Shown here: one piece after another, positions 7,119 to 8,207 of the stretch
Layout of the letters: the number at the start of each line of letters is the position of its first letter
Numbering within the stretch: position 1 is the first letter of the stretch
From: a virus
Taxonomy: Duplodnaviria > Heunggongvirae > Uroviricota > Caudoviricetes
Length of the DNA stretch: 55,074 nucleotides
Reading direction: 5' to 3' (one strand)
Virus record (IMG/VR): IMGVR_UViG_2880361019_000008
Program-made: the position numbers and the translations under genes
The notes under the pieces: model-generated
What the model saw: only the letters and a program-made list of their open reading frames with translations
The model's database searches: none
What the model was told of the DNA's origin: nothing

Positions 7119-8207
7119 GTGAGTATGGCTAACGCCTGGCTCAGATTATGGCATGACATGCCAAATGACCCTAAGTGGCGAACAATTGCCAGGGTGTCAG
7201 GGCAGCCAATTGCAACAGTGATGGCAGTGTATATCCACCTCCTGGTGAGTGCGTCACGAAATGTCACGCGAGGTCACATTGATGTCACGACAGAAGATTT
7301 GGCAAGTGCGCTCGACGTGACAGAAGAGGTAATTGATTCAATTTTGCAGACGATGCAGGGGCGGGTACTTGATGGTGATTTAATCACTGGATGGGAAAAA
7401 CGCCAGGTGCTTAAAGAGGACAACGGCAATATTTCGCAAACCGCAAAATCTCCTGCAGAGCGCAAGAGGGCGCAGCGAGAGAGGGAAAGAAAGCGGGAAC
7501 AAAATGGCGATTGTCACGGCGCGTCACGAAATGTCACGCACATGTCACGACGAGTCACGACAGATAAAGATACAGATAAAGATACAGATAAAGATACAGA
7601 TCAAGAAGATCAAAACACTATGGTCCATGGCGTAAAAAACGCCACGAACCAGGCAGGGGATGTTCAGACCGTCAATCCTGGTCAGCCAGCAGGCACGACA
7701 CCGGAAGCCGATTCAGCGTATGCGCTGAAAGCCGATTCGGGCGCTGTGCAGCAGGTGATGACCGTAAGGCCGGAGCAATCACACCAACTGCAGCAGCCTG
7801 AAGCCGATTCCGCCATTCAGCGGGAAGCCGATCGGGTAGTCCCGGAAAACACCGGGCTGTCTGTGGGACGAGTGGATTATCCGGATGTGTTCGAACAGGT
7901 CTGGCGGGAGTACCCGTTGCGTGCCGGAGCAAACCCGAAGAAATCCGCTTTCAGTGCCTGGAAGGCCAGATTACGCGAGGGGGTGCCACCAGAGGCCATG
8001 CTGGATGGCGTGAGGCGTTACTCAAGATACCTGGAGGCTACCGGGAAAGCGGGAACTGAATTTGTTCAGCAGGCATCGACGTTTTTTGGCCCGAACAGGA
8101 ATTTCGAAAATCCGTGGTCGCTGCCGAAGGCTGGCGCAGTCAGCCAGCGTTGCGTGAACCACATTTCTGAACCGGACACCGAAATTCCGCCGGGGTTCAG
8201 GGGGTAA
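7119..8207 (+). CDS. Replication initiator (lambda O-like replisome organiser)
   Basis: 362-aa ORF; N-terminal phage replisome-organiser region; internal iteron-like repeats; followed by dnaC-like gene. Confidence 0.8.
   Translation: MSMANAWLRLWHDMPNDPKWRTIARVSGQPIATVMAVYIHLLVSASRNVTRGHIDVTTEDLASALDVTEEVIDSILQTMQGRVLDGDLITGWEKRQVLKEDNGNISQTAKSPAERKRAQRERERKREQNGDCHGASRNVTHMSRRVTTDKDTDKDTDKDTDQEDQNTMVHGVKNATNQAGDVQTVNPGQPAGTTPEADSAYALKADSGAVQQVMTVRPEQSHQLQQPEADSAIQREADRVVPENTGLSVGRVDYPDVFEQVWREYPLRAGANPKKSAFSAWKARLREGVPPEAMLDGVRRYSRYLEATGKAGTEFVQQASTFFGPNRNFENPWSLPKAGAVSQRCVNHISEPDTEIPPGFRG
7253..7289. repeat. Iteron-like cluster 1: four GTCAC(G/A) repeats at about 10-11 bp spacing
   Basis: GTCACG at 7253, 7263, 7284 and GTCACA at 7273. 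Confidence 0.45.
7513..7559. repeat. Iteron-like cluster 2: five GTCACG repeats phased at 10-11 bp (candidate ori)
   Basis: GTCACG at 7513, 7523, 7533, 7544, 7554; immediately followed by an A+T-rich tandem repeat. Confidence 0.5.
7563..7598. repeat. 12-bp tandem repeat GATAAAGATACA x3 (A+T-rich, encodes DKDT repeats)
   Basis: Three perfect copies read directly from sequence. Confidence 0.7.

What the first reader, a model, noticed from the sequence alone, without database searches (positions are those of the whole stretch)
7253..7598. Helically phased GTCACG iterons and an A+T-rich tandem repeat inside the O-like initiator gene
Two clusters of GTCACG repeats spaced 10-11 bp apart (four copies at 7253-7289, five at 7513-7559) lie within the initiator coding sequence. 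The second cluster is immediately followed by a perfect 12-bp triple repeat GATAAAGATACA. Lambda places its origin (iterons plus an A+T-rich region) inside gene O, so this looks like the replication origin of this prophage, with the DNA doing double duty as coding sequence (SRNVT and DKDT peptide repeats).
Basis: partly seen in the sequence, partly recalled or inferred. Interest (0 to 1): 0.5.

Follow-up and report, generated by a model that had tools for sequence, protein, structure and literature searches.

The report
Replication origin inside prophage initiator gene
The short GTCACG repeats and the A+T-rich repeat inside this prophage's replication-initiator gene are real and are conserved as DNA, not as protein, across distant bacteria, so they are almost certainly the phage's replication origin: a familiar arrangement, in a protein family where I found no description of it.

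Summary
GTCACG occurs at 7253, 7263 and 7284, with GTCACA at 7273. It occurs again at 7513, 7523, 7533, 7544 and 7554, spaced 10-11 bp. GATAAAGATACA x3 follows. This is the only phased hexamer chain of four or more copies in the 55-kb window.

The gene (7125-8207) is not a lambda O homologue. Its N-domain is a DnaD-NTD-like winged helix, with a sub-threshold match to Pfam Phage_rep_org_N.

In 20 homologues from genomes of 34-69% G+C, synonymous positions inside the cores are fixed (for example Val GTC 20/20, Thr ACG 20/20, Gly GGT 20/20). The neighbouring spacer position varies freely. The tract after the last iteron stays A+T-rich (GAT 29/30, AAA 27/33) even in G+C-rich genomes.

Other subfamilies carry different words (GTAACG, CGAACGC, GTGACGC) at the same two places. 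An unrelated N-domain fused to the same C-half carries AAGGGGCTT there.

Best reading: an iteron-plus-unwinding-element origin embedded in the initiator gene, as in lambda O, pSK41 RepA and SPP1 G38P. The differences are 6-bp cores one helical turn apart and a second array inside the N-domain coding sequence. Nothing has been tested experimentally.

The parts
7125..8207 (+). Replication initiator gene (360 aa). It has an N-terminal winged-helix domain (about aa 1-95), a basic helix (aa 110-130), a linker encoded by the origin, and a C-terminal module (from about nt 7610).
7253..7289 (+). Iteron array 1: GTCACG at 7253, 7263 and 7284, and GTCACA at 7273, spaced 10/10/11 bp. It encodes ASRNVTRGHIDVT, the end of helix 3 and the loop before the helix-turn-helix of the N-domain.
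   Evidence: Synonymous positions are fixed in 20 homologues. The E. coli 09-02E homologue has a 21-bp insertion here that adds two more copies.
7316..7321 (-). Single inverted GTCACG copy, 27 bp downstream of array 1. It encodes part of LDVTE.
   Evidence: It is present at the equivalent position (nt 192 or 180 of the gene) in most GTCACG-class homologues.
7513..7559 (+). Iteron array 2: five perfect GTCACG copies spaced 10/10/11/10 bp, in the inter-domain linker (CHGASRNVTHMSRRVT). This is the presumed main initiator-binding array of the origin.
   Evidence: Cores are invariant and spacers variable in homologues. Homologues have 3-5 copies, spaced 10 bp (88 cases) or 11 bp (28 cases).
7560..7611 (+). 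A+T-rich tandem repeat with a purine-rich top strand (12-bp unit ACAGATAAAGAT x3.9, encoding DKDT repeats), with two GATC sites (7599-7602, 7608-7611). This is the presumed DNA-unwinding element. It is also the recombination joint between the N and C modules.
   Evidence: G+C 0.30-0.34. Copy number varies from about 2 to 5 among E. coli relatives. The homologous tract has G+C 0.14-0.36 whatever the genome G+C, with GAT 29/30 and AAA 27/33 in genomes of >=57% G+C. Partial homologies end at window 7582 or begin at 7612.
7621..7651 (-). Hairpin with a 13-bp stem immediately to the right of the A+T-rich tract. It is stable only on the minus strand and is followed there by a U/T-rich tail. Its role is unknown: an antisense terminator, or a structure formed on the unwound strand.
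   Evidence: Minus strand -22.1 kcal/mol, z -5.5; plus strand -13.7, z -1.9. The hairpin is kept, with compensatory changes, in L005 and L007.
8214..8954 (+). DnaC-like helicase-loader gene, interrupted by a TGG->TGA nonsense codon at 8313-8315 (codon 34).
   Evidence: PF01695, NF009043 and phrog_50 hits to the distal part. Alignment with the POCJ13 and O157 homologues shows the single G->A change.

Best explanation
Positions 7253-7611 hold the prophage's replication origin, written into the coding sequence of its own initiator gene.

Proposed mechanism:
1. The initiator's N-terminal winged-helix domain binds the 6-bp GTCACG cores. Because the cores are direct repeats one helical turn apart, the monomers stack head-to-tail on one face of the DNA. 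There are five sites in the linker-coding array (7513-7559), and four direct plus one inverted site in the array inside the N-domain coding sequence (7253-7321).
2. The nucleoprotein complex destabilises the adjoining tract at 7560-7611, which is A+T-rich with purines on the top strand.
3. The C-terminal module then brings in the DnaC-type helicase loader and the host DnaB.
4. Rightward early transcription from the cro/cII-like side passes through the site.

What is shown: the repeats exist, they are non-random, they are under DNA-level selection, the A+T-rich tract is under compositional selection, the repeat word changes together with the N-domain subtype, and the N-domain has a winged-helix fold.

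What is inferred: that the initiator binds the repeats, that unwinding occurs at the tract, that the C-module recruits the helicase, and what the upstream array does (a second binding array for cooperative looping, or for control).
For: 1. Non-randomness.
2. The repeat is a DNA repeat, not a peptide repeat. The same word is read in three frames.
3. Codon choice is fixed. At protein-invariant residues of 20 homologues, the codons are Ala43 GCG 18/20, Ser44 TCA 19/20, Val47 GTC 20/20, Thr48 ACG 20/20, Gly50 GGT 20/20, His51 CAC 19/19, Val54 GTC 20/20 and Thr55 ACG 19/20. Background use of these codons is 15-24% (His 59%). Arg49, whose third base lies in a spacer, uses CGA 8, CGT 5, CGC 6 and CGG 1.
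4. The tract after the last iteron keeps G+C at 0.14-0.36 in genomes of 34-69% G+C. It uses GAT 29/30 and AAA 27/33 where the rest of the same genes use 38% and 27%.
5. The architecture is family-wide. In 42 of 54 homologous genes the same hexamer is phased in both zones, against 0.9% of synonymous shuffles.
6. There are specificity classes: GTCACG, GTAACG(C), CGAACGC and GTGACGC. Each is followed by a CAGATAAAGA-like tract.
7. Module swaps fit the model. E. coli 09-02E keeps the N-half and every core, but has another C-half and a lambda-P-like partner. The O157 prophage and phage POCJ13 keep the C-half, but have another N-domain and carry AAGGGGCTT repeats at the same two places.
8. Within +/-2.5 kb of 22 GTCACG loci, the initiator is the only protein family present in all of them.
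10. Solved precedents have the same layout: pSK41 RepA (PMC5703833), SPP1 G38P/oriL (PMC5737612) and lambda O (PMC6022878).
Against: - There is no experimental evidence for binding, unwinding or autonomous replication in this family.
- The link between repeat word and N-domain subtype is partly forced by physical linkage, because the arrays lie inside or next to the N-domain coding sequence.
- The predicted 'recognition' helix (aa 67-77, EEVIDSILQTM) is acidic, so how the domain binds DNA is unclear. The DnaD-NTD fold does not itself bind DNA (PMC7145576).
- The cores are much shorter than classical 17-22-bp iterons.
- This copy's DnaC-like gene carries a nonsense codon, so the origin may not fire in this particular prophage.
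- No DnaA box (up to 1 mismatch) or IHF consensus site lies in the gene. This neither helps nor hurts the model.
Confidence: 0.8

Rival explanations
1. The arrays are initiator-binding sites, but they act mainly in control rather than as the start site. They could mediate autorepression, block transcription of the initiator gene, handcuff two copies, or act as an incompatibility or exclusion determinant. Unwinding and priming would then happen elsewhere.
For: There are two separate arrays, one of them inside the N-domain coding sequence. This recalls the control arrays of iteron plasmids (my own knowledge of P1 incA and R6K). Antisense features lie next to the site.
Against: An A+T-rich tract held under compositional selection directly abuts array 2 in every specificity class. 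That is the signature of an unwinding element, not of an operator. No alternative iteron-plus-A+T-rich site was found in the window. A control role for array 1 is compatible with the best explanation and does not compete with it.
Confidence: 0.1
2. The GTCACG arrays are bound by some other protein, not by the initiator. Candidates are a host factor that reads phased direct repeats (for example an OmpR/PhoB-type winged-helix regulator, whose Pho-box half-site CTGTCA resembles TGTCAC) or a neighbouring phage regulator (the Cro/YdaS-like or cII/YdaT-like proteins).
For: Phasing at 10-11 bp is typical of tandem winged-helix regulators (my own knowledge). YdaS-like and YdaT-like genes lie directly upstream.
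Against: No flanking protein family is shared by all 22 GTCACG loci. The Cro/YdaS-like family occurs in only 11 and the repressor family in 4. Within the same host genera, other subfamilies carry other words: AAGGGGCTT in E. coli, GTAACG in Enterobacter and Pantoea. A common host factor does not explain that. The word stays constant from Entomomonas to Pseudothauera, tracking only the N-domain subtype.
Confidence: 0.05
3. The repeats are only a by-product of peptide repeats (SRNVT, DKDT) selected for protein function, or of replication slippage in a tolerant linker. They have no function as DNA.
For: The 12-bp unit is a multiple of three, and its copy number drifts among close relatives, as slippage would produce. 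The SRNVT peptide is conserved.
Against: The 10-11-bp spacing puts the word in all three frames, giving different peptides (S-R, V-T, C-H, G-H). Synonymous positions in the cores are fixed while spacer positions vary. Shuffles that keep the protein but randomise codons lose the repeats. GAT and AAA are retained against 57-69% G+C backgrounds.
Confidence: 0.02

Closest known systems
Bacteriophage lambda O protein and ori-lambda (and other lambdoid O/ori types)
   Same: - The origin lies inside the initiator gene, between the coding sequences for the N-terminal origin-binding domain and the C-terminal partner-binding domain.
- An iteron array is followed on the right by an A+T-rich, easily unwound tract (PMC6022878).
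- The N-half plus the origin is exchanged as one module, separately from the C-half.
- The gene sits downstream of cro/cII-like genes in the rightward early operon.
   Different: - No sequence membership: no PF04492 hit even at E<=10.
- Lambda has four 18-bp inverted-repeat iterons, each bound by an O dimer. Here there are 6-bp direct-repeat cores every 10-11 bp.
- There is a second array inside the N-domain coding sequence.
- The partner here is DnaC-like, not P, although other members of the family pair with a P-like protein.
RepA_N plasmid initiators (pSK41 and pTZ2162 RepA, PF06970)
   Same: - A three-part protein: a winged-helix NTD structurally like DnaD-NTD, a linker encoded by the origin, and a host- or partner-specific CTD.
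- The Rep boxes lie centrally within the rep gene (PMC5703833).
   Different: - No Pfam PF06970 hit.
[quoted passage not shown]
- Those are plasmids of Firmicutes. This is a family of prophages in Proteobacteria and Acidobacteria.
Phage replisome organizers (Pfam Phage_rep_org_N PF09681; SPP1 G38P with oriL)
   Same: - This is the best, though weak, sequence relative: E 0.0093, covering positions 1-119 of the 121-position profile. PHROG replisome-organizer families also hit weakly.
- SPP1 oriL is embedded in gene 38 and consists of repeated boxes bound by G38P plus an adjacent A+T-rich unwinding element (PMC5737612).
- NCBI names close relatives of this protein 'phage replisome organizer'.
   Different: - The score is below Pfam's gathering threshold (16.4 against 23.3 bits).
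- The repeat type, the number of copies, and the two-array layout inside one gene all differ.
- The partners are a DnaC-like or P-like loader, rather than G39P/G40P.
Tandem winged-helix binding to phased direct repeats (OmpR/PhoB-type sites; phage P4 alpha protein ori/crr octamers). This comparison rests on my own knowledge and was not tested here.
   Same: Short direct repeats spaced about one helical turn apart, so that monomers line up on one face of the DNA. P4 also uses two separated arrays (ori and crr).
   Different: These proteins are unrelated to this one. OmpR/PhoB-type proteins are transcription factors. The P4 arrays lie kilobases apart and outside the initiator's DNA-binding-domain coding sequence.

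Membership tests
Lambda O family (Pfam Phage_rep_O, PF04492) | Sequence match of the N-terminal domain to the family profile | tested here: not met
   No hit at E<=0.01 for the full protein, and none at E<=10 for the N-domain.
Lambda O family (Pfam Phage_rep_O, PF04492) | Four inverted-repeat iterons of about 18 bp, each bound by a dimer | tested here: not met
   The cores are 6-bp direct repeats at 10-11 bp spacing. No hyphenated dyads are present in the arrays.
Lambda O family (Pfam Phage_rep_O, PF04492) | Origin inside the initiator gene, with an A+T-rich tract to the right of the iterons | tested here: met
   This is an architectural feature only.
Phage replisome organizer N-domain (PF09681) | Sequence match above the gathering threshold | tested here: inconclusive
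   E 0.0093, 16.4 bits against a cut-off of 23.3. The match covers residues 5-123 and nearly the whole profile. Weak PHROG replisome-organizer hits: phrog_4880 at 1.6e-7 and phrog_5968 at 1.3e-5.
Phage replisome organizer N-domain (PF09681) | DnaD-NTD-like winged-helix fold | tested here: met
RepA_N plasmid initiators (PF06970) | Sequence match to the RepA_N profile | tested here: not met
   No hit at E<=10. A profile search of PDB sequences did not find 4pta.
RepA_N plasmid initiators (PF06970) | Iterons located centrally within the rep gene, in a linker between the NTD and CTD | tested here: met
   Array 2 lies between the modelled N-domain with its basic helix (aa 1-130) and the C-module. 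Compared with pSK41 as described in PMC5703833.
Iteron-type replication origin (general) | Three or more direct repeats next to an A+T-rich unwinding element | tested here: met
   Five cores followed by a tract of 30-34% G+C.
Iteron-type replication origin (general) | Selection acting on the DNA sequence of the repeats, independent of coding | tested here: met
   Codon test. Synonymous shuffles. Conservation across genomes of 34-69% G+C.
Iteron-type replication origin (general) | Specific binding of the repeats by the cognate initiator | not testable with these tools
   Support is indirect only: the repeat word changes with the N-domain subtype, and no other protein is shared by all loci.
Iteron-type replication origin (general) | The fragment supports initiator-dependent autonomous replication | not testable with these tools
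   No experiment is available, and no literature was found for this family.

The most novel reading that the evidence does not exclude
Throughout a widespread initiator family (Gamma-, Beta- and Alpha-proteobacteria and Acidobacteria), the binding word of the origin is written twice into the initiator's own gene. One copy set is in the linker, next to the unwinding element. The other is inside the coding sequence for a surface loop of the winged-helix domain that reads it.

The second array would be a functional, conserved binding array, acting in looping, handcuffing, or a roadblock on the gene's own transcription. New specificity classes (GTCACG, GTAACG, CGAACGC, GTGACGC) would then arise by concerted change of both arrays and the protein.

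In the strongest form, the iteron-encoded loop itself helps to recognise the iteron.
Probability: 0.35. Interest if true: 0.65.

Novelty: new variant of a known kind. Interest (0 to 1): 0.45.

Why it matters
This assigns a concrete, testable origin to a replication module found in prophages of about 43% of complete E. coli genomes (2338 of 5426). Homologues occur across several bacterial phyla. The module sits beside, but differs from, the lambda O/P and 'Eru' replication regions catalogued for Stx phages (PMC8044961).

It is also an unusually clean case of overlapping codes. A 6-bp protein-binding word and an A+T-rich unwinding tract dictate amino-acid sequence and codon choice, against genome G+C contents from 34% to 69%.

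The set of natural specificity classes, with module swaps on either side of the unwinding tract, offers ready material for studying three things: how initiator and origin specificity co-evolve, how phage replication incompatibility arises, and how compatible replicons might be engineered.

Tried and rejected
- **Lambda O homology.** Rejected: no Phage_rep_O hit.
- **Eru replication types of Stx phages (PMC8044961).** The Eru1-3 proteins described there are different proteins (a DEAD-box helicase, an O-related 273-aa protein, and DnaB-type partners). The paper does not mention iterons or origins.
- **Literature on this origin.** Searches for 'GTCACG' with iteron and phage, and for 'replisome organizer' with iterons and prophage, found nothing on this family. 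The Pf-5 paper's iterons belong to an unrelated genomic island.
- **Solved-structure relatives by sequence.** A profile search of PDB sequences gave nothing meaningful.
- **C-terminal domain structure.** The alignment was shallow and the model had pLDDT 51.5, so it was unusable. No fold search was run on it. The PHROG label 'DnaD-like helicase loader' for the C-domain could therefore not be checked structurally.
- **DnaA boxes and IHF sites in or near the gene.** None.
- **First codon tabulation.** It selected codons by their overlap with GTCAC and so was circular. I replaced it with the protein-anchored test.
- **DnaA-trio reading of the GATAAA repeats.** The periodicity is 6 or 12 nt, not a strict trinucleotide repeat. 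Not pursued.
- **PhoB, OmpR or other host-factor binding.** Considered and judged unlikely (see the rival explanations).
- **Frameshift in the dnaC-like gene.** It is a nonsense substitution, not a frameshift.
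Full report
**1. What is in the sequence**

Reading 6700-8400 and searching the whole window confirms the reported repeats.
- On the + strand, GTCACG lies at 7253, 7263 and 7284, with a one-mismatch copy (GTCACA) at 7273.
- A second cluster of five perfect copies lies at 7513, 7523, 7533, 7544 and 7554. Spacing is 10 or 11 bp throughout.
- Directly after the fifth copy comes a 12-bp tandem repeat. Tandem Repeats Finder gives 7560-7606, 3.9 copies, 97% matches. GATAAAGATACA is perfect three times at 7563-7598.

The pattern is not chance.
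- Nine of the window's 37 GTCACG sites lie in these 300 bp.
- A scan of the whole window for any hexamer chained at 9-12 bp finds this as the only chain of four or more copies. 200 second-order Markov simulations never exceeded three.
- G+C drops to 0.30-0.34 at 7550-7624, the minimum for the gene.

**2. The gene**

All of this lies in ORF 7125-8207.
- It is the full-length type member of phrog_3729, 'replication initiation protein' (E 1.6e-245).
- It has no Pfam hit at E<=0.01 and, in particular, no Phage_rep_O hit.
- The N-domain scanned alone gives a sub-threshold, full-length match to Phage_rep_org_N (PF09681; E 0.0093, 16.4 bits against a cut-off of 23.3).

So the initiator resembles lambda O in architecture and function, but it belongs to the DnaD-NTD / replisome-organizer / RepA_N structural class.

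Array 1 encodes ASRNVTRGHIDVT. This is the end of helix 29-45 and the loop before the helix-turn-helix, a stretch of lower model confidence. Array 2 and the 12-bp repeat encode the linker after the basic helix.

The surrounding genes are:
- upstream, a divergent repressor (5843-6262), a Cro/YdaS-like gene (6363-6644) and a cII/YdaT-like gene (6628-7053);
- downstream, a DnaC-like loader (8214-8954).

**3. A DNA repeat, not a peptide repeat**

Because the spacing is 10-11 bp, the same word is read in all three frames: xxG-TCA-CGx gives S-R, GTC-ACG gives V-T, and xGT-CAC gives C-H or G-H. Shuffling synonymous codons within the gene keeps the protein but leaves a mean of 2.4 GTCAC (maximum 6) in nt 1-480, against 9 observed (2000 shuffles).

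**4.

The N-domain is widespread. There are 482 protein clusters at E<=1e-3. There are 59 genomic loci in Gamma-, Beta- and Alpha-proteobacteria, Acidobacteria and others. 2338 of 5426 complete E. coli genomes have a match to the gene.

For 20 genes of the GTCACG class, from genomes of 34-69% G+C, I tabulated codons at residues that are invariant in the protein. The test is therefore anchored on the protein and is not circular.

| Residue | Codon | Count |
|---|---|---|
| Ala43 | GCG | 18/20 |
| Ser44 | TCA | 19/20 |
| Val47 | GTC | 20/20 |
| Thr48 | ACG | 20/20 |
| Gly50 | GGT | 20/20 |
| His51 | CAC | 19/19 |
| Val54 | GTC | 20/20 |
| Thr55 | ACG | 19/20 |

Background use of these codons elsewhere in the same genes is 15-24% (59% for His CAC). 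Arg49, whose third base falls in a spacer, uses CGA 8, CGT 5, CGC 6 and CGG 1. Synonymous sites are thus saturated where they are unconstrained and frozen inside the cores.

Across 21 genes there are 163 cores, spaced 10 bp (88 times) or 11 bp (28 times). In the close relative E. coli 09-02E (N-half about 87% identical), every core is kept while the spacers differ by substitutions and indels. A 21-bp insertion adds two more copies to array 1.

**5. The A+T-rich tract is also under DNA-level selection**

The 36 bp after the last linker core have G+C of 0.14-0.36 and are 56-89% purine on the top strand, whatever the genome G+C. In loci of >=57% G+C, Asp is GAT 29/30 and Lys is AAA 27/33 there, against 38% and 27% in the rest of the same genes.

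A CAGATAAAGA-like start to the tract recurs in every specificity class. Among close E. coli relatives the 12-bp unit varies from about 2 to 5 copies, as expected for a spacer or unwinding tract of flexible length.

**6. The architecture is general and the word changes with the N-domain**

In 42 of 54 homologous genes the same hexamer is phased in both zones (nt about 100-270 and about 300-540), against 0.9% of synonymous shuffles.

The classes seen are GTCACG, GTAACG(C), CGAACGC and GTGACGC. This produces matching peptide 'echoes' at the two places. Examples are ASNATERGRTQ with NAAERxRT, and ETTGNAGVTQG at both places in a Sphingomonas locus.

Natural module swaps point the same way.
- E. coli 09-02E has the same N-half and the same iterons, but a different C-half followed by a lambda-P-like gene.
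- An O157 prophage and Shigella phage POCJ13 have the same C-half and the DnaC-like partner, but an unrelated N-domain. They carry AAGGGGCTT repeats at 11-bp spacing at the two corresponding places, followed by purine-rich (GAACAG)n.
- The partial homologies end at window 7582 or begin at 7612. The recombination joints therefore bracket the A+T-rich tract.

Within +/-2.5 kb of 22 GTCACG loci, the only protein family present in all of them is the initiator. The next most frequent are a P-like gene in 13 and a Cro/YdaS-like gene in 11.

**7. Mechanism**

The best-supported reading (confidence about 0.8) is an iteron origin embedded in the initiator gene.
- Winged-helix N-domains bind the 6-bp cores in tandem on one face of the helix.
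- The adjoining A+T-rich, strand-asymmetric tract at 7560-7611 melts.
- The C-module recruits the helicase loader and the helicase.

The existence of the elements, the selection on them, their change with N-domain subtype, and the fold are shown. Binding, melting and recruitment are inferred from the layout and from solved precedents:
- pSK41 RepA, with its winged-helix NTD, Rep boxes central in the gene, a dispensable linker and a partner-specific CTD (PMC5703833);
- SPP1 G38P, with oriL embedded in gene 38 as repeated boxes plus an unwinding element (PMC5737612);
- lambda O/ori (PMC6022878).

The function of array 1 is open. It is conserved and changes along with array 2, so it is probably a second binding array, either for cooperative looping with array 2 (260 bp away) or for control.

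Points against the model: no experiment exists; the link between word and subtype is partly forced by physical linkage; the predicted recognition helix is acidic, so the binding surface may instead involve the conserved PKWRT helix, the loop and the basic helix; and DnaD-NTD itself does not bind DNA (PMC7145576).

**8. Rivals**

- A purely regulatory role for the arrays: about 0.1.
- Binding by a host or neighbouring regulator: about 0.05, contradicted.
- Peptide repeats or slippage only: about 0.02, contradicted.

**9. Novelty**

An origin inside the initiator gene is a classical arrangement, so the kind is known. I found no description of this family's origin in the searchable literature. 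The 25 phage records that encode the N-domain are all recent isolates with generic annotations.

The points that depart from the known examples are:
- 6-bp direct-repeat cores at one-turn spacing, instead of 17-22-bp units;
- a second array inside the coding sequence of the DNA-binding domain;
- several natural specificity classes;
- preservation of both codes across 34-69% G+C.

I rate it a new variant of a known kind, with interest 0.45.

**10. State of this copy**

The DnaC-like gene carries a TGG->TGA change at 8313-8315, so the phage-encoded loader is probably inactive. Free-living relatives (Tritos and others) lack a DnaC-like gene altogether, so host DnaC may be enough. The iterons and the initiator ORF are intact.

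Noticed in passing
window 8313-8315 (in the dnaC-like gene 8214-8954): A single G->A substitution turns Trp34 (TGG) into TGA, relative to the POCJ13 and O157 homologues. The helicase-loader gene is therefore a pseudogene, or is re-initiated at GTG 8445 to give only the AAA+ part. The prophage may be replication-defective or may depend on host DnaC.
   Followed up: yes
window 7621-7651, minus strand: A hairpin with a 13-bp stem lies directly after the A+T-rich tract. It is stable only on the minus strand (-22.1 kcal/mol, z -5.5, against -13.7, z -1.9 on the plus strand) and has a U-rich tail. It is conserved, with compensatory changes, in L005 and L007. It looks like an antisense terminator or a structure on the unwound strand. 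In the alternative C-module (L004, L013) a perfect palindrome CGCGCA(C/T)GTGCGCG sits at the same relative position.
   Followed up: partly
window 8136-8207 (last 24 aa of the initiator...EPDTEIPPGFRG): The C-terminal tail weakly matches the extreme C-terminus of primosomal protein DnaT (NF002770 positions 156-179; E 0.0014, far below the cut-off). An IP(A/P)GFRG motif recurs in otherwise different C-halves (P0033 at the C-terminus, P0087 just before a short tail). It may be a short partner-binding peptide.
   Followed up: no
L051 and L061 (Serratia and Pantoea loci), nt about 320-370 of the gene: These two homologues have longer proteins (403 and 449 aa) and carry ACTACG/CGTAGT words in mixed orientation in a single zone, instead of the two-array layout. 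Twelve of 54 homologues, including the low-G+C L034, L037 and L049, show no shared phased hexamer by my criterion.
   Followed up: no
window 4534-4585 (-), 11099-11273 (+), 13709-13909 (+), 16137-16303 (+), 15621-15701 (+): Rfam and ARAGORN find DicF (next to the immunity region, as in Qin-type prophages), a sok antitoxin RNA, isrK, C4 antisense RNA with its a1/b1 targets, STnc100, and a tRNA-Leu(CAG).
   Followed up: no
window 23042-23057 (-) and 37225-37253 (+): Two further short phased repeats occur elsewhere in the window: a GTCACG pair 10 bp apart on the minus strand, and TGAAGG x3 at 11-12 bp spacing. Chains of three occur by chance in about 9% of simulations.
   Followed up: no
L033 (Pseudomonas sp. 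JAI111), gene nt about 130-210: The loop that hosts array 1 is expanded by about 25 residues (…GITCHDMSRENVTNVTFVTCHE…) made almost entirely of GTCAC-derived dipeptides. This shows that the loop tolerates large insertions of iteron DNA.
   Followed up: partly
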